Assembly (NCBI GenBank): GCA_963552615.1
Contig: CAUVKG010000003.1
Location: forward strand, 15,163 to 79,162
Direction: 5' to 3'
DNA length: 64,000 bases
Source: an uncultured Candidatus Saccharibacteria bacterium
Lineage (GTDB): Bacteria; Patescibacteriota; Saccharimonadia; Saccharimonadales; Saccharimonadaceae
Below the pieces are notes generated by a model. That model saw nothing but the letters and a program-made list of their open reading frames with translations, did no database searches and was not told the origin of the DNA. This document shows positions 3,158 to 41,856 of the stretch, piece by piece. Every line of letters starts with the position of its first letter. Within the stretch, counting starts at the first letter, position 1. The position numbers and the translations under genes are program-made.

Positions 3158-4529
3158 GCTCTTCCCGAAGACCTTCTTAGTCTCGATGGGGCTCTTTTTA
3201 GCGTTGATCGTACTGATGCATCTGCTGATCTACATCCTGATGCCCCGACTTTACCTCGACCAAAAGCAGCAAGAAGCTTCAGAGAGCTTAGCTTCGCTGG
3301 AGGCGCAGTTAAAGGGTCGGTCACTTAACCAAATGCGTCAAATCTGTCAGAGGTTCTCTATCGCTAAGAATGTCAATATCACTCTGACGGCGAACGGACG
3401 AGACGACTATTTCCAAGGATTTCAGACGATCAATATTGTGACGGATAGGGGTAAGTCGGCTGACGTTGATGTGGTCAAGATCGCCGATGGGCAATCAGTT
3501 GATCCACGCTCGGTGATCTTAAAGCAGAGCAGCTTAAAGGATGCCGATGGACGAAAGCTTAGCGTCAGACTGCTGGTAAATGTTGAACCGGTCAAGCAAG
3601 CCAAGCTGGCGACACTTCATGCCTTGCCCTATACGGTGTCTGCTTCGCTGCTGGTGGCACTACTCTTTTCCTATTGCTATAGCCGATTCGTAACCAAGCC
3701 GATTCGCCGGATGGCTAAGGTCACCACTCTGATGCAGCACCTGGAGAAAGGAGTGCAATATTCTGTCGAAAGTAGCGATGAGATTGGCGTACTGGGACGT
3801 AACATTAACGAACTTTATCAGAGCCTATGGCAAACGATCCGCTCGCTGGAGCAGGAAAATAGGCGAATTAGCAAGCTGGAGAAAGAAAGGCTGGTGCTGC
3901 TAAGGGCTACATCGCACGAGCTTAAGACGCCGCTAGCCAGCCTGCGAATTATGCTGGAGAATATGCAGCTGAATATCGGCGAGTATCAAGACCGTGACCG
4001 CTACCTGGCGGAATCGCTAGCGCAGGTTGATCGCCTGACTAAAATGGTCAATGACATCTTAAGGGCAGGTAGTCTAGCTGAGAATGCCTTGCGGGGCGAG
4101 AAGAAGCTGCGGATCGATCAGATCGTTGCTGAAGTGATCGATGATTATCGCTTGTTGGCCAAAGCTCGTCGGGTTACCTGCCGGCTCGATCTAGCGCCAA
4201 CCTTTACGAAAGCTAACTATGACATGATGCACCACGTCATCTCTAACCTGATCTCAAATGCCGTACGCTATAGCGAGGTGGGCAGCGTGATCAAGGTTAC
4301 CTGCCGTCAACATAGATTGGTGGTAATCAATAAATGTCAGCCACTTACTCAGGCGCAGTTACAGCGAGTGTTTGACCCCTTTTATCACACAGATCGCCAA
4401 GTGTCGTCGGAGTCAGACGGAAGCGGGGTGGGGCTATATATCGTCAAAATGCTGTTGGAGGCTAAGAGGCTGGAATACAGCTTCTCTCCGGTCAAGCAGG
4501 GCATGGCTTTTACTATCTATTTTCCATAA
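3144..4529 (+). CDS. Membrane sensor histidine kinase (HAMP-HisKA-HATPase)
   Basis: ATG 3144 (MKRLKLFPKTF, TM helix) overlaps the regulator stop by 14 nt. H-box SHELKTPL, G-box DGSGVGLYIV. Confidence 0.9.
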   Translation: MKRLKLFPKTFLVSMGLFLALIVLMHLLIYILMPRLYLDQKQQEASESLASLEAQLKGRSLNQMRQICQRFSIAKNVNITLTANGRDDYFQGFQTINIVTDRGKSADVDVVKIADGQSVDPRSVILKQSSLKDADGRKLSVRLLVNVEPVKQAKLATLHALPYTVSASLLVALLFSYCYSRFVTKPIRRMAKVTTLMQHLEKGVQYSVESSDEIGVLGRNINELYQSLWQTIRSLEQENRRISKLEKERLVLLRATSHELKTPLASLRIMLENMQLNIGEYQDRDRYLAESLAQVDRLTKMVNDILRAGSLAENALRGEKKLRIDQIVAEVIDDYRLLAKARRVTCRLDLAPTFTKANYDMMHHVISNLISNAVRYSEVGSVIKVTCRQHRLVVINKCQPLTQAQLQRVFDPFYHTDRQVSSESDGSGVGLYIVKMLLEAKRLEYSFSPVKQGMAFTIYFP

Positions 4530-4631: not shown

Positions 4632-6014
4632 ATGTCATTCATTCGAAGAGCTTGGCTATATATCACCAGGAAAAAGCTCAAAACACTGATCTTACTGGCG
4701 ATCTTGCTCTGTATGGCGACGGTGATGCTAAGCGGCTTCGCCATTAAGCATTCGACGGACAGGGCGGCGCAGTCGCTGGATAAAACACTGAAAGTCGGTT
4801 TTAACCTGGGGAACAACCCTCGCACTAACCCCGGTACGGCTCGTGGCTCGGGTACCGTCTCAGGTAAAGCTATCGATGAGATCAGGAAACTGCCGGGGGT
4901 AACCGACTATGTCAAGCGTCAGAATGCTACAGTGGACTTCACTGATACCAAGCTAGTCCCCTTGCCTAATGGCGGTAGCGGCTATGATGCCGAGAAGGAC
5001 AAGCAGTTCGGTAATGCGGCGACCATTCTGGGGGTTAATAAATCAGAGCTGGAGAACAAGTTTCGGGCGGGGTCACTCAAACTGGTGGCGGGGCGTCACA
5101 TCACTGAGCAAGATAGCCACAAGATATTGGTACACCAGGCTTTTGCTAAGGCAAATAAGCTCAAGCCGGGTAGTAAGCTTAAACTCAAGGCCAACCAATA
5201 CGACACCGACAATGAGCACCCGTCAAAGGACGAAGTAGAGGTCGAGGTTGTCGGCATATTTAACGGGAAGAACCCCAAGGAAGCTGCCTATCAAGTGGAG
5301 CTCTTTGAGAATATCTTTTTGACCGACATTGCGACGACTCGTCAGCTCAATGCTTATACAGCACAGAGTGAGATTTACCAAGATGCTAACTTCTTCACCA
5401 AAGGTAGCAAGCAGCTTGATGAGGTGATGAACCAAGCCCGTCAATTGTCGGTTGACTGGAATAAATACCAGCTGAACAAGAATAGCCAAGAGTTAGCCGG
5501 TGTGACTGAGTCGGTAAATGGCGTCTATAATCTGGTGGATGGTATGCTCTGGGCTACTGCACTGGTCAGCATAGCCGTGATTGGTATGGTGCTATATCTG
5601 TGGATGAACGAGCGCAAGCGTGAGGCGGGGGTGCTGATGGCGACGGGCATATCGCAGTCTGAGGTCATCTTGCAATACATAGCCGAGCTGGTCATGATAG
5701 CCATACTCAGCTTCGGCGCATCCTACTTTACCTCCGGGCTAATCGCTCAGCAGCTAGGTAATCAGATGGTGTCGCAGGCTTCGCAGGCTGCTGCGAGCCA
5801 GGCGAGTGAGTCGCTCAACGGAGCTTCGCTGGGAGCTGATGCTGATTCGGTCACCTCGTCTCGCACCTTAGACAAAGTAACCGTCGGTACTACTCCGGCT
5901 GACCTGATAGCGGTGTGGGGAGTGGGGCTAGTGGTGATCGTCATCGCCGTGCTATTCGCTTCTCGCCCAATCACCGGGTCAACGCCAAAGAAGCTATTAA
6001 CCGACATAAGCTAG
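4632..6014 (+). CDS. MacB/FtsX-type ABC permease (TM1, large extracytoplasmic domain, 3 C-terminal TMs)
   Basis: AGGAGG 4623-4628 then ATG 4632. Topology is read from hydrophobic stretches. The upstream part of the track ORF was rejected. Confidence 0.8.
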   Translation: MSFIRRAWLYITRKKLKTLILLAILLCMATVMLSGFAIKHSTDRAAQSLDKTLKVGFNLGNNPRTNPGTARGSGTVSGKAIDEIRKLPGVTDYVKRQNATVDFTDTKLVPLPNGGSGYDAEKDKQFGNAATILGVNKSELENKFRAGSLKLVAGRHITEQDSHKILVHQAFAKANKLKPGSKLKLKANQYDTDNEHPSKDEVEVEVVGIFNGKNPKEAAYQVELFENIFLTDIATTRQLNAYTAQSEIYQDANFFTKGSKQLDEVMNQARQLSVDWNKYQLNKNSQELAGVTESVNGVYNLVDGMLWATALVSIAVIGMVLYLWMNERKREAGVLMATGISQSEVILQYIAELVMIAILSFGASYFTSGLIAQQLGNQMVSQASQAAASQASESLNGASLGADADSVTSSRTLDKVTVGTTPADLIAVWGVGLVVIVIAVLFASRPITGSTPKKLLTDIS

Positions 6015-9497: not shown

Positions 9498-10187
9498 TTA
9501 TTTACTTTTTCGGCGCAGTTCTTTGTAGCTAGCTAGAGTAGCCTGGTCAATTGTCTGTTTAGTCTTAGATAGATAACGCTTAACTAAATAATAGCCTAAT
9601 TTATACCCTGCCCAGCGGGGTAGCAGATCATCGCCGGAGAAAAAGATCGTTTCGTAGTCGTACTCCATGTTATCTAATTTATTCCTTAGGGCCGTCATCA
9701 TAGTGCTGATTTCTTTCGGTTCTGCTCGCCGGACTTCAGCCAGGAAGAACTGTCGTAGCTCGTAGCCGGATTGATTCATTGCCTGCTCCTCCAGCACTAC
9801 CGCCAGACCCTCCATGATCATACCGTCAAATAACGTCTCGGCAAACTCGGGTACTTTCTCCCAGCGTAGCGAGTGAGACAGTTCATGACAGACCGTCTCA
9901 AAGATGAAGTCCTCGCTCGGTTCGTGCTGACTTTTATCTAGTGCTACGACTATTAGACGAGAGTGATAAGTTCGTCCGCCAATACCGTCCTGCTGGATAG
10001 TCGGTGTCGTGGGTGATGATGAGACAACTATCAGATCAAGGTCGTAATCAAATGACCGGAATACACCGGATACAAAGGTCTCTGCACTCTTAACGGCACG
10101 ACGAATAGCGGTCACGTCCGTATCAGTAAAATCCTTGCCGGCATTGGCAATGTAGAGATGTATCCGACTCATGATCTGATTATACAC
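9498..10187 (-). CDS. Putative Zn-dependent metallopeptidase (HExxH; DUF2268-like)
   Basis: VCHELSHSLRWE HExxH motif, with size and layout like DUF2268 proteins. Confidence 0.55.
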   Translation of the reverse strand: MYNQIMSRIHLYIANAGKDFTDTDVTAIRRAVKSAETFVSGVFRSFDYDLDLIVVSSSPTTPTIQQDGIGGRTYHSRLIVVALDKSQHEPSEDFIFETVCHELSHSLRWEKVPEFAETLFDGMIMEGLAVVLEEQAMNQSGYELRQFFLAEVRRAEPKEISTMMTALRNKLDNMEYDYETIFFSGDDLLPRWAGYKLGYYLVKRYLSKTKQTIDQATLASYKELRRKSK

Positions 10188-10214
10188 CTGAGCCCCGTTA
10201 ATATAGGGTCTAGC

Positions 10215-10305
10215 TTGACAAATGCGGGGGTGTTACAGTGGAGACTATCAGGTTGTATGCGAGACCGGCTCACATGACCTGCGTTCTTTGAAAGGAGCTA
10301 GTAGA
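10215..10305 (+). promoter_or_regulatory. Copy A of a conserved TTGACA promoter plus 5'-UTR hairpin plus SD module
   Basis: TTGACA 10215-10220, GTGTTA block, hairpin 10249-10281 (CAGGT..ACCTG), GCGTTCTTTGAAAGGAG. Aligns with 40436-40524(-) and 41074-41163(-). Confidence 0.55.
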
Positions 10306-10347
10306 ATGTCAACTAATGCTTCGGATCTTAGGCTAGCTCAAATCTAA
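10306..10347 (+). CDS. 13-codon ORF (MSTNASDLRLAQI) behind leader copy A; possibly a decayed cassette ORF
   Basis: ATG 10306 lies 9 nt after AAGGAG. It overlaps the 3' end of the convergent ASCH gene by 20 nt. Confidence 0.2.
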   Translation: MSTNASDLRLAQI

Positions 10348-10666
10348 TGCCGATGACTCCGAATTGCACTTGCTTCTCGGGGCTATAGAATTCGTTAAGT
10401 GTGGCTATGAGGTTATCCTTGGTTGCGGCTTTGTCAGCTAATATAGCGATGTCAAAATCCTTACATAAGTCAACGAATGAGTCGTAGTGTAATAGCCCGA
10501 CAACTCTTGCTTGAACGCTTTTGTCATTAGATCCGGAAAACTCAATAAGGTCTCCCAGGTCAATCCGGCGACGTTTATCGTCAAAAAGTCGTAATTCTAT
10601 ACGTTTTGTGCCACCTTTGATATAGCTAAAATATGGCTCTTTCAAATGCATCTTATGTGTTTTCAT
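10328..10666 (-). CDS. ASCH (PUA-like) domain protein
   Basis: MHLKEPYFSYIKGGTKRIELRLFDDKRRRIDLGDLIEF is a typical ASCH N-terminal pattern. Confidence 0.65.
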   Translation of the reverse strand: MKTHKMHLKEPYFSYIKGGTKRIELRLFDDKRRRIDLGDLIEFSGSNDKSVQARVVGLLHYDSFVDLCKDFDIAILADKAATKDNLIATLNEFYSPEKQVQFGVIGIRFELA

Positions 10667-12220: not shown

Positions 12221-13717
12221 ATGAGTAATAGTGGAGGTGGTACTAGGCTTGCCCTGTATCGTAAGTATCGACCAACTAGCTTGGCTCAGGTGATCGGTCA
12301 GCCGCAAGTAACAGAAATATTACAAGCCTCGCTCGACCATGGCGCCTTTGCTCATGCTTATCTCTTTACCGGGCAGCGAGGTACCGGCAAGACGACCGTG
12401 GCTCGTATCCTGGCACATTTAGTCAACGGACTAGACTACAGCGACAACCTGAGCAACGACAGCATTGATATCATTGAGATAGATGCCGCCAGTAATAATG
12501 GCGTCGATGATGTGCGGCAGATCCGAGACAGCGTCCAGCTGGCACCGATGAACTGTCGCTACAAGATATATATCATCGACGAGTTTCATATGCTCAGCAA
12601 GCCGGCTTTCAACGCTCTACTCAAAACCATTGAGGAGCCGCCCGAGTACGTCATTTTCGTCCTCGCCACTACCGAGTTACAGAAGGTGCCGGCTACCATT
12701 TTGTCACGAGTGCAGCGGTTTCATTTCAAGCCCGTACCGGTCGATCTCTTAGCTAAACATCTGCGCATGATCGCTGAGTCGGAACATATCAACGTCGATG
12801 ACGATGCCCTGAGATTGATTGCTGAGCACGGTGGCGGCAGTGTGCGTGATGCGATTACTCTGCTGGATCAGCTAGCCGGCAACCAATCCATCACCGTGGA
12901 GACCGTCAATGACGTCCTGGGTCTGATCTCGCAAGCAGAGATGAGCCAATTAGCGACCAATATCACCGAAGGGAAACCTCAGCCGGTCATCAGCCAGGTT
13001 AACGAGCTGATCGGTAATGGAGTCGGTGCTACGGCTTTAGCCAAGCAACTAATCGACCACCTGACTAAGCTGGCACCGGATCAGCCCGAGCTTTATCGGC
13101 TAATAGAGCGCCTGTTGGAAGTCGGTCGAGCTGGCTTGCCCGAGATCAAGCTGATGGCTATCTTAGTCGACGCATCGTTACCGAGAGTGTCCACCAGTCC
13201 GTCAGTTGTACCTAGGGCTACGAAACCAGCTCAATCCACTGTAGCTCAAGTGACTGCTAAATCTACTCCGGTGTCCAAGCCCGCCGCTAAGGCTAGTTCG
13301 ACCGGTGACAGCCAGTCGAAGACGACAAACACTAAGAAAACTGCCCCAACTGCCGCTCCGGTATCAGCCGAGCCGGCAGAGGCAACCGAGTCGATCAAAG
13401 AGCTGGTCTGGGCGGATGTAATTAACCAACTGGCAGAGCAGAACCGTCCTTCTACTAAATCACTGCTGGAGCAGGCGGACTATCGCTACAGCGCTTCGAC
13501 GAATACTCTGACATTATTCTTTGGTAAGACCTTTCATCGCAAGCAAGCTAAGACCGGTCGCTTTCAAGATAGCTTGCTGACCACGCTGAACGAGCTCTAT
13601 CAGGTTAAGCCAACGATTGTCATATCAGAGGAGCCGGCTCCGCTTGACTCTGACGTCGCCGCAGTTCTAAGTGTAGTTGGTGGAGAGGTAACCACTATTA
13701 GCGATGGCACGATCTAG
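12221..13717 (+). CDS. dnaX: DNA polymerase III subunit gamma/tau
   Basis: YRPTSLAQVIGQ, Walker A GQRGTGKTT, IIDEFHMLS, SRVQRFHFK. Low-complexity Pro/Ala/Ser/Thr linker in the C-terminal half. Confidence 0.9.
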   Translation: MSNSGGGTRLALYRKYRPTSLAQVIGQPQVTEILQASLDHGAFAHAYLFTGQRGTGKTTVARILAHLVNGLDYSDNLSNDSIDIIEIDAASNNGVDDVRQIRDSVQLAPMNCRYKIYIIDEFHMLSKPAFNALLKTIEEPPEYVIFVLATTELQKVPATILSRVQRFHFKPVPVDLLAKHLRMIAESEHINVDDDALRLIAEHGGGSVRDAITLLDQLAGNQSITVETVNDVLGLISQAEMSQLATNITEGKPQPVISQVNELIGNGVGATALAKQLIDHLTKLAPDQPELYRLIERLLEVGRAGLPEIKLMAILVDASLPRVSTSPSVVPRATKPAQSTVAQVTAKSTPVSKPAAKASSTGDSQSKTTNTKKTAPTAAPVSAEPAEATESIKELVWADVINQLAEQNRPSTKSLLEQADYRYSASTNTLTLFFGKTFHRKQAKTGRFQDSLLTTLNELYQVKPTIVISEEPAPLDSDVAAVLSVVGGEVTTISDGTI

Positions 13718-38982: not shown

Positions 38983-39819
38983 CTAGCGGTCTGCTTGCTT
39001 CGTCTTCTTCTTGTCAGACAGGTAACTATTCAGGCAAGAGCTAAAGCCACCCAGCACCAGCACGACAGAGACAGGCAATAGCCACTGACCATAATCAGTC
39101 ACGACAGGCTTGGTCACCGCCCAAACAATATAGAGAATCACATTGACTCGATGACGCCCGCCATCACTAAAGACCATCGACATCAAGGCGTCCACACCAC
39201 ACAAGATAAACGGAATCAGCCCGATGTAAAAGATGATCCGCCCTGCCTTGTTCGTCTCCAAGACTTTACCCAGCCAACTCTTGTTGGCTTTCTTCTTACC
39301 GTTCGGGTCGCCAATCCGGTTAACCTTGCCGAGATGGCCGGCTTTCGCTACGAAGATATTATTCTCGCCCGACTTGATTTGCCCCAGCACATCGCTAACT
39401 ATGACCGGGATCTCGACATTGGGCAGGCTAGCTACCAGCTGATAATGGCGAGATGGATCTGACGCCTCGTGCCCCTGTATCCACTTGACGGCAGCGGGGT
39501 AGCTATCCGTCTTCGCTGCATCGACCAGCTGTCCTTTCTCATTAATCGTGCCGATGCGATAAGATATGTCAGCGGTCGGCATGATGCGGACGAAGATAGT
39601 CTTAGTCGGCTTCTTCAGCTCGTAGGCATAGACGTCGTCGCTATGCTTCTTCAGCGTCAACTCTTTGCTGACCCGGCGAGACTTTAGCTCGTCGGTGATT
39701 TGGTCTAGATAGCTAGCTACTTGGCTTCGCTTAATGACGTATCCTGAGCTGGCACTTACCGCTCCCCGCATTTTATCGACCGTCAATCGAAATAGTACAA
39801 AGACTAAGTCATCTGCCAT
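38983..39819 (-). CDS. Hypothetical membrane protein (soluble N-terminal domain plus C-terminal TMs)
   Basis: ORF track. Three C-terminal hydrophobic helices. Confidence 0.55.
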   Translation of the reverse strand: MADDLVFVLFRLTVDKMRGAVSASSGYVIKRSQVASYLDQITDELKSRRVSKELTLKKHSDDVYAYELKKPTKTIFVRIMPTADISYRIGTINEKGQLVDAAKTDSYPAAVKWIQGHEASDPSRHYQLVASLPNVEIPVIVSDVLGQIKSGENNIFVAKAGHLGKVNRIGDPNGKKKANKSWLGKVLETNKAGRIIFYIGLIPFILCGVDALMSMVFSDGGRHRVNVILYIVWAVTKPVVTDYGQWLLPVSVVLVLGGFSSCLNSYLSDKKKTKQADR

Positions 39820-39863
39820 CTCTTCTCCTTAAAAGTTACATAGTAGGGCAACAAAATAAGCTT

Positions 39864-39938
39864 TGGTTGGGATGGAGGGATTCGAACCCCCGAATACCAG
39901 GACCAAAACCTGGGGCCTTACCACTTGGCGACATCCCA
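39864..39938 (-). tRNA. tRNA-Gln (anticodon UUG)
   Basis: Hand-folded. Acceptor UGGGAUG/CAUCCCA with U1-A72, anticodon arm CCAGG-UUUUGGU-CCUGG, T arm GGGGG-UUCGAAU-CCCUC, encoded ACCA. Closely resembles E. coli tRNA-Gln. Confidence 0.85.
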
Positions 39939-39976
39939 ATAAAGCTAATAAGATTATACACCATTCCGAGGTCGGT

Positions 39977-40078
39977 AAAAAAGGAAAATCCCCCTACTCG
40001 TAAGTAGGGGGACTGGAGGGTGGATAGAGATGCCGGCGAGCCGGCGCACAAAAAACATGCGCTGACCCGCCGGAGCAA
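39977..40078 (-). repeat. Conserved ~100-nt structured 3' module, copy 1 (includes terminator 39977-40011)
   Basis: A 45-nt block is identical to 40873-40917. Terminator stem CCCCCTAC/GTAGGGGG is followed on the minus strand by ATTTTCCTTTTTT. Confidence 0.7.
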
Positions 40079-40081
40079 GCG

Positions 40082-40435
40082 CTAGCTCTTAAGGGCTGAC
40101 GCCCTCAAAAGCTTGGGGTCGCCTAAGATCAGGCGACCATCCACTTGCACCCCCTGAACAGGGGTTGTAAGGACTAGCTCCTCCTCTTTAGAGGAGGAGC
40201 CGTTCATCTCGGAGCAACGGTTGTCACCGCTGCTCCGAGTCTCTCTCTGCAGAGCAAACAAATGTTGCTCTGCTTTCTCGATACTCTCGAGGGCTCGCTC
40301 AAGCGAGTCCTCGAGACAAGCACCTGCTACCGAGCGGGCGCTTTCAAGCGCCTGCTCTAGCTGGCTACGAGCTCCCTGGAGCTCGTAGCCAATATTTAAC
40401 GTTCTAAACGACACACACTCTTCCATATCATACAT
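40082..40435 (-). CDS. Hypothetical 117-aa protein (cassette ORF B; helical, Glu/Leu/Ala-rich N-terminal half)
   Basis: ATG lies 5 nt after GGAGGA of leader copy B. The stop lies a few nt before the 3' module. Confidence 0.6.
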   Translation of the reverse strand: MYDMEECVSFRTLNIGYELQGARSQLEQALESARSVAGACLEDSLERALESIEKAEQHLFALQRETRSSGDNRCSEMNGSSSKEEELVLTTPVQGVQVDGRLILGDPKLLRASALKS

Positions 40436-40524
40436 ATTTCCTCCAAAGAACGCAGGTCATACGAGCTTTTCTCGCATGCAACCTGATAGTGTTCATTCAT
40501 AACACCCTTATCCTTATTTGTCAA
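40436..40524 (-). promoter_or_regulatory. Copy B of the conserved TTGACA promoter plus 5'-UTR hairpin plus SD module
   Basis: TTGACA (40519-40524 rc), 17 nt, TATGAA. Hairpin 40453-40485, then GCGTTCTTTGGAGGA. Confidence 0.6.
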
Positions 40525-40610
40525 GTAGCGTCCTACATTAACGCCTTAACTGCAAAGGATGAGCTCAATAAAGACACGTTTCAAGTTTAGTCCCGTGGTT
40601 TAATGGATTT

Positions 40611-40810
40611 TTGGAAAGTCAATTAACCGGAAAGGACGTTAGAAACGTGTCTAACAACAAGTATATACAACTTTGCTACGATGAACGTATAGTTATCGAG
40701 AATAGGTTAAAGAATGGTGAATCATACACTGCTATTGCCAAGTCGCTTGGACGCTCAACCAGTACTATCTCTCGTGAGGTTAATAGCTTTATTGAGGAGC
40801 AAATACAAAG
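40611..40810 (+). pseudogene. IS30-family transposase N-terminal HTH remnant (only ~65 aa of similarity)
   Basis: YDERIVIENRLKNGESYTAIAKSLGRSTSTISREVN matches the IS30 HTH_38 pattern (LGRSxSTISREI). The frame then runs into the 3' module repeat and there is no DDE domain. Confidence 0.5.
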
Positions 40811-40821
40811 ACTGCCAGGTC

Positions 40822-40917
40822 GAAAACGGGAAAATCCCCCTGCTCGAAAGCAGGGGGGTGGAGGGTGGATAGGATGCCGGCGAGCCGGCGCACAAAAAAC
40901 ATGCGCTGACCCGCCGG
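40822..40917 (-). repeat. Conserved ~100-nt structured 3' module, copy 2 (includes terminator 40822-40857)
   Basis: Aligns with 39977-40078. The terminator stem is changed in a compensatory way to CCCCCTGC/GCAGGGGG. Confidence 0.7.
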
Positions 40918-40923
40918 GTAGAA

Positions 40924-41073
40924 CTAACTCTTAGATTCACCTCCTTCCAGAGGCTTGACGACAAAGGACTCCAGACGAAATCCCCTTTCCTCGCAGGCGG
41001 CGATAGCCGCCACTGCGATTTCGATCATCTCGGGGCTAACCTCGCCCCGAACATTGCTTACCTCATAGTCCAT
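40924..41073 (-). CDS. Hypothetical 49-aa protein (cassette ORF C: MDYEVSNVRGEVSPEMIEIAVAAIAACEERGFRLESFVVKPLEGGESKS)
   Basis: Not in the ORF track (under 60 aa). ATG lies 6 nt after AAGGAGGG of leader copy C. The stop abuts 3' module copy 2. Confidence 0.5.
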   Translation of the reverse strand: MDYEVSNVRGEVSPEMIEIAVAAIAACEERGFRLESFVVKPLEGGESKS

Positions 41074-41163
41074 TGTTCCCTCCTTAAGGAACGCAAGCCA
41101 TCCGGTCTGTTACCGGATGCAACTTGATGGTATTACTCTAACACTTTATCTCTCTTTTGTCAA
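41074..41163 (-). promoter_or_regulatory. Copy C of the conserved TTGACA promoter plus 5'-UTR hairpin plus SD module
   Basis: TTGACA (41158-41163 rc), 17 nt, TAGAGT. Hairpin 41094-41126 with 8-bp perfect stem CATCCGGT/ACCGGATG. Confidence 0.6.
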
Positions 41164-41316
41164 GCTTGGGCATAATAGAGCGGCTTTACACTGAGGCAGC
41201 AAGACCCGCCATTCTTCACCCGGCATCCTCAGCCATACCACATTAGCCCTTGACTATTATTTATTATAGATATATTTTATCCACGATGAATATTAAATAT
41301 CAGCCGGGGAGGCCGT

Positions 41317-41856
41317 ATGAAGCTAACTAAGAGCTTTGAGCAGGGAGTCTGCCTGATGGCAATCCTCGCCACTCAGACTAAGGCTATCCCCGTCTCATCT
41401 CGCACTTTACAGCGACGCCTGCCGACATCTATGACTTATAGCCAGAAGTTGCTGCGCAAGCTGGTTGTCGCCGGTATCGTCAAATCAGTGCCGGGGAATA
41501 GTGGTGGATTCGCCCTGGCTCGTCCCATCGGGCAGATCTCCATCTTGGAGGTGGTCGAAGCACTGGAGGGCAGAGTAGACAGCTTTCCCAGTACGGGGCT
41601 CTTTAGTGCTATCTTTACTAACCAAACCGGTGCCAACGCTCACCAAGCCATCACTACAGCCGACCAGGCGGTACACCGTATCTTCATGACCGCCGACGGC
41701 GTCTGGCGACAGGTGCTGAGCGAAGTAAATATCGGCGATATCATTGACCGAGTCATTTCGTCACATCGCCATTTGCCTCAGCTGGACTGGAACGACCCCG
41801 GCGTCGAGACCAATGCTATCTTCACCATTAACCAAAAGGAGGCCACAGATGATTAA
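41317..41856 (+). CDS. Rrf2-family transcriptional regulator (no Cys cluster)
   Basis: MKLTKSFEQGVCLMAILA...SSRTLQRRL...LLRKLVVAGIVKSVPGNSGGFALARP wHTH pattern. Confidence 0.7.
   Translation: MKLTKSFEQGVCLMAILATQTKAIPVSSRTLQRRLPTSMTYSQKLLRKLVVAGIVKSVPGNSGGFALARPIGQISILEVVEALEGRVDSFPSTGLFSAIFTNQTGANAHQAITTADQAVHRIFMTADGVWRQVLSEVNIGDIIDRVISSHRHLPQLDWNDPGVETNAIFTINQKEATDD

What the first reader, a model, noticed from the sequence alone, without database searches (positions are those of the whole stretch)
40436..41163. Conserved promoter plus covarying 5'-UTR hairpin shared by unrelated small ORFs
**Shared layout.** Copies B (40436-40524, -) and C (41074-41163, -), plus copy A at 10215-10305 (+), share the following order of elements. 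TTGACA; 17 nt ending in GTGT; a -10 hexamer (TATGAA / TAGAGT); about 12 nt; a hairpin; GCGTTC(T/C)TT; an SD; the ATG.

**Covariation.** The hairpin changes in a base-pair-preserving way. In B it is CAGGT-TG-CATGCGAG[AAAAG]CTCGTATG-ACCTG. In C it is CAAG-TTG-CATCCGGT[AACAG]ACCGGATG-G-CTTG. Several paired positions differ while pairing is kept.

**ORFs.** The ORFs behind B and C (117 aa and 49 aa) are not similar to each other.

Preserved pairing across sequence changes argues for a functional RNA element, such as a stabiliser, a translational control element or a protein/ligand-binding leader, rather than a simple duplication. I do not recognise it as a known riboswitch or leader class.
Basis: partly seen in the sequence, partly recalled or inferred. 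Interest (0 to 1): 0.7.

Follow-up and report, generated by a model that had tools for sequence, protein, structure and literature searches.

The report
Conserved 5'-UTR hairpin in Saccharibacteria cassettes
Three copies of a strong promoter followed by an mRNA hairpin are real, and the hairpin is kept by compensatory mutations, but they head duplicated gene cassettes found only in one group of oral Saccharibacteria, so this is an undescribed yet fairly ordinary mRNA leader.

Summary
All three copies are at the stated coordinates, and a covariance model finds no others in the window. The organism is an oral Candidatus Saccharibacteria (TM7, Nanoperiomorbus-like). The module occurs in about 54 related genomes as at least seven sequence types.

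- **Pairing:** across 40 distinct sequences, 97.5% of stem cells pair, against 21-37% in slid controls. Seven of 13 pairs changed on both sides. The wobble pairs favour folding of the sense strand.
- **Position:** the stem starts 8-10 nt after the -10 hexamer, so it should sit at the very 5' end of the mRNA.
- **Known families:** no Rfam family matches.

The interpretation needs correcting.

- **ORFs B and C:** they do not align to each other. They belong to one mosaic family of small proteins that also shares a 3' UTR. They lie in tandem upstream of tRNA-Gln.
- **Copy A:** it is a relic. Its promoter spacer is 13 nt, and it has a 13-codon stub left by loss of an ASCH/acetyltransferase operon that is intact in other genomes.

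My best explanation is inferred, not shown. The hairpin is a 5'-terminal mRNA-stabilising stem-loop. A weaker second hairpin partly covers the Shine-Dalgarno sequence. A site for a trans-acting RNA-binding protein is the main rival. Interest is modest.

The parts
40496..40524 (-). Copy B promoter: -35 TTGACA (40524-40519), 17-nt spacer, TG-extended -10 TATGAA (40501-40496)
   Evidence: Sequence read; exact pattern match. Its score of 9 of 12 passes the total in the consensus scan, which still does not list it because the -10 hexamer TATGAA lacks the required final T.
40453..40485 (-). Copy B hairpin 1: CAGGU-UG-CAUGCGAG[AAAAG]CUCGUAUG-ACCUG (5 bp, 2-nt bulge, 8 bp, 5-nt loop)
   Evidence: (z = -2.6)
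40433..40452 (-). Copy B: conserved CGUUCUUU (40452-40445), SD GGAGG (40444-40440), ATG (40435-40433). A weak hairpin 2 may form between UUCU and GGAA.
   Evidence: SD mostly unpaired in this variant, P = 0.80
40082..40435 (-). ORF B, 117 aa: an orphan Saccharibacteria protein with a long helix and a small C-terminal beta domain
39977..40073 (-). Cassette B 3' UTR: long hairpin (40073-40033), C-rich ATCCACCCTCCA, and an intrinsic terminator (40014-39977)
41135..41163 (-). Copy C promoter: -35 TTGACA (41163-41158), 17-nt spacer, TG-extended -10 TAGAGT (41140-41135)
   Evidence: 10 of 12 matches, TG present
41094..41126 (-). Copy C hairpin 1: CAAGU-UG-CAUCCGGU[AACAG]ACCGGAUG-GCUUG
   Evidence: (z = -4.7)
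41071..41093 (-). Copy C: CGUUCCUU (41093-41086), SD AAGGAGGG (41085-41078), ATG (41073-41071). GUUCCUU pairs with AGGGAAC to form a 7-bp hairpin 2.
40924..41073 (-). ORF C, 49 aa: the short form of the same mosaic family (tail ...ACEERGFRLESFVVKPLEGGESKS)
40823..40917 (-). Cassette C 3' UTR. The first 45 nt (40917-40873: the long hairpin plus CATC) are identical to those of cassette B. The C-rich segment (90% identical) and the terminator (86% identical) differ slightly.
10215..10239 (+). Copy A promoter relic: -35 TTGACA, a G-rich spacer of only 13 nt (10221-10233), -10 TACAGT
   Evidence: Not reported by the promoter scan.
10249..10281 (+). Copy A hairpin 1: CAGGU-UG-UAUGCGAG[ACCGG]CUCACAUG-ACCUG, with one C.A mismatch and one U.G pair
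10282..10347 (+). Copy A: CGUUCUUU, SD AAGGAG, and a 13-codon stub ORF (10306-10347). The stub overlaps the 3' end of the convergent ASCH gene at 10328-10666 (-).
40659..40782 (+). IS30-type HTH_38 fragment inserted between cassettes C and B. It is not part of the leader.
   Evidence: E = 3.9e-14. It is absent from the same spacer in L055 and L056.
39864..39938 (-). tRNA-Gln (UUG), immediately downstream of the cassette array

Best explanation
**What the module is.** Each copy is the head of a self-contained expression cassette. It has a near-consensus sigma-70 promoter (TTGACA, 17 nt, TG-extended -10). Transcription should start 0-4 nt before a 33-nt bulged hairpin.

**Proposed function of hairpin 1.** It acts in cis as a 5'-terminal stem-loop. 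It would shield the mRNA from 5'-end-dependent decay, as the stem-loops in E. coli ompA and B. subtilis aprE leaders do. This would give high, stable expression.

**Proposed function of hairpin 2.** The conserved pyrimidine stretch CGUUCYUU just after hairpin 1 can pair with the 3' half of the Shine-Dalgarno region. That forms a short second hairpin that tunes ribosome access.

**Origin of the copies.** They arose by duplication of whole cassettes. The stem has since drifted under selection for pairing.

**Shown versus inferred.**
- Shown: the structure, its covariation, its strand, its fixed position after the -10 hexamer, and its strong conservation.
- Inferred: the transcription start, the stabilising role and the effect on translation.
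For: **Occurrence and structure**
- There are three copies in the window and no more.
- A pattern scan found 71 loci in about 54 Saccharibacteria genomes, plus 3 chance hits.
- The model and protein-guided look-ups added types D, E, F and G.
- On 40 distinct sequences, 97.5% of cells pair and 7 of 13 pairs changed on both sides. One pair shows six standard pair types. Slid controls pair at 21-37%.
- RNAalifold predicts the same helix de novo.
- The type A C.A mismatch is repaired in two different ways, to C-G in L002 and to U-A in L060.

**Strand**
- From the table, 42 cells are G.U on the sense strand. These would be A.C on the other strand. That gives about 97.5% pairing on the sense strand against about 91% on the antisense strand.

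**Position and conservation**
- The distance from the -10 hexamer to the stem is 8-10 nt in every type.
- In 19 B-type loci, mean pairwise identity is:

| Region | Identity |
|---|---|
| Hairpin | 0.99 |
| -35 to hairpin | 0.93 |
| Coding sequence | 0.80 |
| Third codon positions | 0.75 |
| Upstream of -35 | 0.57 |

- Twenty-three over-extended gene calls, found only by homology of the coding sequence, read through the B leader as YQVACEK(S/G)SYDLR. This is essentially invariant, while the proteins diverge to 69% identity.

**Hairpin 2 and cassette ends**
- Hairpin 2 appears in the minimum-free-energy fold of most types. The SD is then about 45% unpaired.
- The B-E cassettes also end in a long 3' hairpin and an intrinsic terminator.
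Against: - There are no transcript data, so the start site is only predicted.
- A plain protective hairpin does not need a conserved 2-nt bulge (UG, or UA in types D and G). It also does not need a fixed 5-nt loop or the invariant flanks AUCA and CGUUC. These features hint at sequence-specific recognition.
- Hairpin 2 is weak in the window's copy B (SD 80% unpaired), absent in type E, and missing from the RNAalifold consensus.
- Copy A folds no better than shuffles. It keeps its hairpin in about 30 genomes where the operon is gone, which a pure mRNA stabiliser does not explain.
- The sampled genomes are closely related, so some of the conservation is shared ancestry. The B-type loci were selected by a pattern that fixes 19 of 38 positions.
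Confidence: 0.45

Rival explanations
1. The hairpin is the binding site of a trans-acting RNA-binding protein or ribonuclease. This factor would co-regulate translation or decay of a small regulon: the mosaic small-protein cassettes and the ASCH-acetyltransferase operon.
For: - The unpaired features are more constant than the stem. The 5'-side 2-nt bulge sits at the same position in all seven types. The loop is always 5 nt, and in all types but E (GGAGG) it starts with A and ends with G.
- The flanks AUCA and (U)GCGUUC are invariant in types A-D, F and G, while 7 of 13 stem pairs changed.
- The same leader heads two unrelated gene sets: ASCH plus a GNAT-like gene, and the small proteins.
- The hairpin persists on the ORF-less copy A.
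Against: - No candidate binding protein was identified.
- The encoded proteins differ between cassettes, so autoregulation by the product is unlikely.
- The constant features could reflect recent common ancestry or gene conversion.
- Type E changes both the loop (GGAGG) and the 3' flank (CAUACAUU) yet keeps the stem.
Confidence: 0.25
2. Hairpin 1 followed by CGUUCUUU acts as a promoter-proximal transcription attenuator or pause site. It would terminate a fraction of transcripts before the ORF.
For: A stable stem (-15 to -24 kcal/mol for the leader) is followed by a U-rich stretch in types A and B (CGUUCUUU, 5 U in 8).
Against: - The first two bases after the stem are C and G.
- Type C has 4 U, and type E has CAUACAUU.
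- The terminator scan does not report it at any copy.
- No alternative antiterminator pairing was found.
Confidence: 0.08
3. The inverted repeat works at the DNA level. It would be either an operator for a dimeric regulator, such as the neighbouring Rrf2-family protein (41317-41856), or a recombination site that promotes cassette shuffling.
For: - The repeat lies just downstream of the promoter.
- An Rrf2 regulator gene is divergently adjacent to cassette C in the window and in many loci.
- Promoters, hairpins and ORF modules are mosaic between cassettes.
- In L078 the cassette lies between 159-nt inverted repeats.
Against: - Half-site sequences differ between copies in one genome (CATGCGAG, CATCCGGT, TATGCGAG). 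One regulator would not tolerate that.
- The asymmetries are G.T wobbles on the sense strand plus a conserved one-sided bulge. These fit RNA rather than duplex DNA.
- No recombinase gene lies beside the window cassettes, and no flanking repeats surround them. The IS30 piece is a truncated HTH only.
Confidence: 0.1
4. The hairpin has no function of its own. It is simply carried along with duplicated cassettes, and the apparent covariation comes from a few inherited events.
For: - Only about seven independent types exist, all in one narrow clade.
- Within a type there is little variation.
- The shuffle control in the count of structure pairs does not correct for relatedness.
Against: - Seven pairs changed on both sides, with 97.5% pairing kept, while slid registers pair at 21-37%.
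- There are two independent repairs of the type A mismatch.
- The leader is far more conserved than third codon positions and the upstream DNA.
Confidence: 0.07

Closest known systems
5'-terminal mRNA-stabilising stem-loops (E. coli ompA 5' UTR hairpin; B. subtilis aprE and ermC leaders). Cited from established knowledge, not tested here.
   Same: A stable hairpin is predicted within a few nucleotides of the mRNA 5' end. It lies upstream of a strong SD, acts in cis, and works in front of different ORFs.
   Different: - There is no sequence relation to those leaders.
- This hairpin has a conserved 2-nt bulge and conserved flanks, which those stabilisers do not need.
- The 5' end and any effect on half-life have not been measured.
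FourU-type RNA thermometers (Salmonella agsA 5' UTR)
   Same: Both are two-hairpin 5' UTRs. In both, a U/C-rich stretch in the second hairpin pairs with the SD.
   Different: - Hairpin 2 here is only 4-7 bp, and half of the SD lies in its loop.
- It is absent in type E and weak in the window's copy B.
- Rfam families gave no hit.
- There is no temperature evidence.
Phage 'morons' and similar autonomous promoter-gene-terminator units
   Same: Each B-E cassette is a compact unit with its own promoter and factor-independent terminator. The cassettes are stacked in an intergenic hot spot next to a tRNA gene. In L001 that tRNA gene also has a prophage directly on its 3' side.
   Different: - The window cassettes are chromosomal and lie upstream of tRNA-Gln. 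They are outside the prophage seen in L001.
- There are no PHROG hits.
Mycoplasma hyorhinis vlp genes: paralogous genes with near-identical 5' regions and a homopolymer tract in the promoter spacer. Cited from established knowledge.
   Same: - Paralogous genes share a highly conserved promoter and leader.
- Their coding regions are mosaic and fast-evolving.
- In types A and D a poly-G tract lies between -35 and -10, and its length differs between genomes (13-18 nt).
   Different: - The proteins have no signal peptide or lipoprotein features.
- The B and C promoters have no homopolymer tract.
- Length variation within a population has not been shown.

Membership tests
Any Rfam 15 family (riboswitches, leaders, thermometers, sRNAs) | Match to the family covariance model at or above the gathering score | tested here: not met
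   The whole window at gathering threshold gave only tRNA-Gln. The region 39800-41300 at E<=10 gave no match overlapping either leader.
5'-terminal stabiliser stem-loop | A hairpin beginning within about 5 nt of the mapped mRNA 5' end | not testable with these tools
   Only predicted. The stem starts 8-10 nt after the -10 hexamer in all types. No transcript data were available.
5'-terminal stabiliser stem-loop | Pairing is maintained by selection, whatever the stem sequence | tested here: met
   97.5% of cells pair, and 7 of 13 pairs changed on both sides. Slid controls pair at 21-37%. The de novo consensus fold is identical.
5'-terminal stabiliser stem-loop | Removing or weakening the stem shortens mRNA half-life | not testable with these tools
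   This needs an experiment.
FourU / SD-sequestering RNA thermometer | The SD is base-paired to a U-rich strand in a conserved, marginally stable hairpin | tested here: inconclusive
   Hairpin 2 is in the minimum-free-energy fold of 9 of the 12 leaders folded (types A, B, C and D). It is missing from the window's own copies A and B and from type E. Type F was not folded. SD P(unpaired) is about 0.45 in most, 0.80 in the window's B and 0.71 in type E. Hairpin 2 is not in the RNAalifold consensus.
Intrinsic terminator / attenuator | A G+C-rich stem immediately followed by a U tract | tested here: not met
   The terminator scan does not report hairpin 1 at any copy. The tails are CGUUCUUU, CGUUCCUU and CAUACAUU.
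Terminal repeat of a mobile element (IS or MITE) | The element lies at the end of a repeated mobile sequence, with an inverted partner and a transposase or target duplication | tested here: not met
   No flanking inverted or direct repeats surround the window cassettes. The IS30 HTH fragment is a separate insertion, absent in L055 and L056. The repeat unit runs from promoter to terminator, not to IS ends.
Palindromic operator for a dimeric regulator | Conserved half-site sequence and symmetric departures from symmetry | tested here: not met
   Half-sites differ between copies in one genome. Departures from symmetry are strand-specific G.U pairs plus a one-sided bulge.

The most novel reading that the evidence does not exclude
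The hairpin would be the recognition element of a dedicated RNA-binding factor. Together with hypermutable poly-G promoter spacers, it would mark a contingency regulon of rapidly recombining small-protein cassettes (plus an ASCH/acetyltransferase operon). Oral Saccharibacteria would switch and diversify these during episymbiosis. That would be a phase-variable, post-transcriptionally co-ordinated cassette system in a CPR bacterium.
Probability: 0.12. Interest if true: 0.6.

Novelty: new member of a known kind. Interest (0 to 1): 0.33.

Why it matters
- Almost nothing is known about cis-acting RNA regulation in Saccharibacteria or other CPR bacteria. These organisms have very small genomes and few regulators.
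- This is a compact, well-supported structured leader attached to a near-consensus promoter.
- It gives a concrete handle for expression studies and for building expression tools in these episymbionts.
- It also flags a clade-specific, fast-recombining family of small proteins next to tRNA-Gln whose role is unknown.
- The element is a simple hairpin in about three copies per genome and in one genus-level clade, so its wider significance is limited unless a specific binding partner or switch is found.

Tried and rejected
- **Rfam:** searches at gathering threshold and at E<=10 found nothing for the leader.
- **Metagenome pattern scan:** it returned only two loci, both type E, and added no new types.
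- **Viral scan:** there was one hit (L001). It is host DNA beside a prophage, on the other side of tRNA-Gln from the phage genes.
- **Protein families:** Pfam, PHROGs, NCBIfam and PADLOC gave no significant family for the B, C or E proteins.
- **Structure:** the AlphaFold2 model of protein B (pLDDT 73.5) shows a long helix and a small beta domain. It has no Foldseek match in the PDB at E<=0.001.
- **Literature:** searches found no description of the element. The stored part of the supplements of a human-microbiome structured-RNA catalogue (PMC8040213) did not contain these sequences. Only 200 of 408 files were searchable.
- **Rejected after consideration:**
  - An integron attC-like site. It has no GTTRRRY core and no integrase, and each cassette has its own promoter.
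  - A CsrA site. Most loops lack GGA.
  - An RNase III substrate. The helix is too short.
  - 5'UTR-3'UTR pairing between the SD and the C-rich 3' motif. Only 6 nt are complementary, and this was not tested further.
Full report

Yes. Reading the sequence shows the same order of elements at all three sites: TTGACA, a spacer ending in GTGT, a -10 hexamer, a short gap, a bulged hairpin, CGTTCYTT, an SD and ATG.

| Copy | Strand | -35 | Spacer | -10 | Hairpin | ATG |
|---|---|---|---|---|---|---|
| B | - | 40524-40519 | 17 nt | TATGAA | 40485-40453 | 40435 |
| C | - | 41163-41158 | 17 nt | TAGAGT | 41126-41094 | 41073 |
| A | + | 10215-10220 | 13 nt | TACAGT | 10249-10281 | 10306 |

- The 16-mer ATGRCYTGCGTTCYTT matches exactly only at these three places.
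- A covariance model (R1) run with filters off and E<=10 finds these three copies and nothing else in 64 kb.
- Leaders B and C fold far better than shuffles (z = -2.6 and -4.7). Leader A does not (z = -0.2) because of a C.A mismatch.
- The gap between the -10 hexamer and the stem is 8-10 nt, not about 12.
- Copy A's spacer is 13 nt, not 17.

**2. Where does it come from and how widespread is it?**

- A pattern was built that leaves the covarying positions free (CANGTTGNAT-N15-ATGNCNTGCGTTC). It hit 74 loci in the species-representative genome collection.
- Of these, 71 are from about 54 assemblies labelled Candidatus Saccharibacteria or Candidatus Nanoperiomorbus (TM7 group G5, human oral). 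The other 3 are chance hits in other phyla, about as many as expected.
- The window is therefore from an oral Saccharibacteria genome.
- Each genome carries about two to four copies.
- No Rfam family matches, either at gathering score or at E<=10.

**3. Covariation**

- Model R1, run on the fetched loci, found types D and E.
- Contigs encoding divergent protein relatives gave types F and G.

| Type | Hairpin sequence |
|---|---|
| D | CAAGU-UA-CACUUGGU[AACAG]ACCAAGUG-GCUUG |
| E | CAAGU-UG-CAUCUGAG[GGAGG]CUCuAGAUG-GCUUG |
| F | CAAGU-UG-CACCUGAU[AACAG]GUCAGGUG-GCUUG |
| G | CAAGC-UA-CACCCGGU[AACAG]ACCGGAUG-GCUUG |

On 40 distinct sequences:
- 97.5% of stem cells are standard pairs, against 21-37% when the 3' partners are slid by 1-3 columns.
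- 7 of 13 pairs changed on both sides.
- One pair shows GC, CG, GU, UG, UA and AU.

Other support:
- RNAalifold predicts the same helix without being given it.
- The C.A mismatch of type A is repaired independently to C-G (L002 group) and to U-A (L060).
- From the table, 42 cells are G.U on the mRNA-sense strand and would be A.C on the other strand. Nine C.A cells go the other way. Pairing is about 97.5% on the sense strand and about 91% on the antisense strand.

The structure is therefore real, selected, and most likely formed by the sense transcript. One caveat applies. There are only about seven independent types from one narrow clade, and alignments fitted to the model lean towards it.

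**4. What the copies are attached to**

The ORFs are not simply 'unrelated'.

*The B-E cassettes*
- The window's B (117 aa) and C (49 aa) proteins give no BLASTP alignment.
- In other genomes the C-type leader precedes chimeric proteins. One (L015) joins the coiled-coil middle found in B-like proteins to the exact C-terminal tail of the window's C protein. Others (L044, L061, P0160) join that middle to the B-type tail ...DGRLILGDPKLLRA.LKS.
- Every B-E cassette also shares a 3' UTR. It has a long hairpin (CCGGCGGGUCAGCGCAUG...UGUGCGCCGGCUCGCCGG), a C-rich ATCCACCCTCCA and an intrinsic terminator.
- In the window the first 45 nt of that 3' UTR (the long hairpin plus CATC) are identical behind B and C. 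They occur nowhere else.
- One to three such cassettes sit in tandem directly upstream of tRNA-Gln.
- The proteins are orphans. There were 183 and 46 unnamed relatives, all from this clade. No Pfam, PHROG, NCBIfam or PADLOC family matched. The AlphaFold2 model (long helix plus small beta domain, pLDDT 73.5) has no significant PDB neighbour.
- In the window a truncated IS30-type HTH (40659-40782) lies between C and B. It is absent from the same spacer in L055 and L056, so it is unrelated to the leader.

*Copy A*
- In L014, L026, L049, L063, L069, L072 and L073 the A-type leader drives a 120-aa ASCH-domain gene. This is followed by a 169-aa gene with a weak RimI-like acetyltransferase match.
- In the window and about 30 other genomes those two genes are gone. 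After six codons the sequence runs into the 3' end of a different, convergent ASCH gene (10328-10666, -). This leaves a 13-14-codon stub.
- The G-rich promoter spacer is 16 nt in 6 of the 7 intact operons. In the stubs it ranges from 13 to 18 nt, and it is 13 nt in the window.
- Copy A in this window is therefore best read as a relic with a probably crippled promoter, although its hairpin is intact.

**5. Constraint**

Among 19 B-type loci, mean pairwise identity differs sharply by region.

| Region | Mean pairwise identity |
|---|---|
| Hairpin | 0.99 |
| -35 to hairpin | 0.93 |
| Hairpin to ATG | 0.95 |
| Coding sequence | 0.80 |
| Third codon positions | 0.75 |
| 100 nt upstream of -35 | 0.57 |
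| tRNA-Gln | 0.92 |

These loci were selected by a pattern that fixes half of the hairpin positions, so an unbiased check was made. Twenty-three over-extended gene calls were retrieved purely by homology of the coding sequence. They read through the leader as ...YQVACEK(S/G)SYDLR..., which is essentially invariant. The proteins themselves fall to 69% identity.

**6. Mechanism**

*Shown*
- A near-consensus promoter with a TG-extended -10.
- A selected hairpin that starts 8-10 nt after the -10 hexamer in every type.
- A conserved pyrimidine stretch and a strong SD.

*Inferred*
- Transcription starts 0-4 nt before the stem, so the hairpin is 5'-terminal.
- By analogy with the well-studied ompA and aprE leaders (established knowledge), it protects the mRNA from 5'-end-dependent decay.
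- CGUUCYUU can pair with the 3' half of the SD region. This gives a 4-7 bp hairpin 2, present in the minimum-free-energy fold of most types, with the SD about 45% unpaired.
- Hairpin 2 is weak in the window's copy B, absent in type E and not in the consensus fold. I treat translational tuning as a secondary, tentative role.

*Rivals*
- **Protein binding (main rival).** The one-sided 2-nt bulge, the 5-nt loop and the flanks AUCA and GCGUUC are more constant than the stem. The hairpin also persists on the ORF-less copy A. A passive stabiliser needs none of this.
- **Attenuator.** Unlikely, because there is no proper U tract and the terminator scan does not report it.
- **DNA operator.** Unlikely. 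Half-sites differ within one genome and the asymmetries are of RNA type.
- **Mobile-element end.** Unlikely. The window cassettes have no flanking repeats.

**7. Comparison and novelty**

- The element works like a 5'-UTR stabiliser or translation-tuning leader.
- It is not a member of any curated RNA family.
- It is a new, clade-restricted member of a familiar kind.
- The cassette organisation recalls phage morons: an autonomous promoter and terminator, with stacking next to a tRNA gene.
- Through the variable poly-G spacer in the A- and D-type promoters and the mosaic ORFs, it also recalls the Mycoplasma vlp contingency genes. Neither resemblance has been tested.

**8. Verdict**

The RNA structure is functional and unknown to Rfam. 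But the copies are duplicated cassettes of one family plus a relic, not unrelated genes.
- Interest is modest, at about 0.33.

Noticed in passing
window 10221-10233; loci L002-L073 (A type); L006 and L040 (D type): The -35/-10 spacer of A-type and some D-type promoters is a poly-G tract. Its length differs between otherwise near-identical genomes, giving spacers of 13-18 nt. It is 16 nt in 6 of 7 loci with an intact downstream operon. This suggests slipped-strand (phase-variable) promoter strength or decay.
   Followed up: partly
window 40073-39977 and 40917-40823 (-): All B-E cassettes share a 3' UTR with three parts. The first is a long hairpin with some compensatory variation between genomes. 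The second is the C-rich motif ATCCACCCTCCA, which resembles the 16S 3' end and is complementary to the SD GGAGGG. The third is an intrinsic terminator. Whether the C-rich motif pairs with the cassette's own SD was not tested.
   Followed up: partly
L078 3215-5695 (another Saccharibacteria species): A homologous cassette with a type F leader sits between tuf and rpsJ and is flanked by 159-nt inverted repeats. A 91-nt perfect inverted repeat (3215-3305 / 5605-5695) encloses the cassette plus rpsJ. Here rpsJ lies on the opposite strand to rplC-rplD-rplW-rplB. This may be an invertible 2.3-kb segment that uncouples S10 from its operon.
   Followed up: no
L001 105-12049 and tRNA-Gln 12599-12673: In this IMG/VR contig, prophage genes (portal, head protein, endolysin, RecT, RecE-like exonuclease) lie directly on the 3' side of tRNA-Gln, which fits integration at or next to it. 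The B cassette lies on the other side of the tRNA.
   Followed up: partly
window 18617-27857 (+): There are three tandem paralogous ORFs of 979, 1038 and 993 aa, with 70-88% nucleotide identity over long stretches. They were not characterised.
   Followed up: no
window 9498-10666 compared with L014 and L026: The neighbourhood of copy A is rearranged between genomes. The genes involved are a DUF2268 protease, two different ASCH genes and a GNAT-like gene. The changes include an inversion of the block relative to rplL and loss of the ASCH-120/GNAT pair.
   Followed up: partly
window 40611-40934 (+): A truncated IS30-family transposase N-terminus (HTH_38, E = 3.9e-14) is inserted between cassettes C and B. 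The same fragment follows C-type cassettes in L034, L041 and L044.
   Followed up: partly
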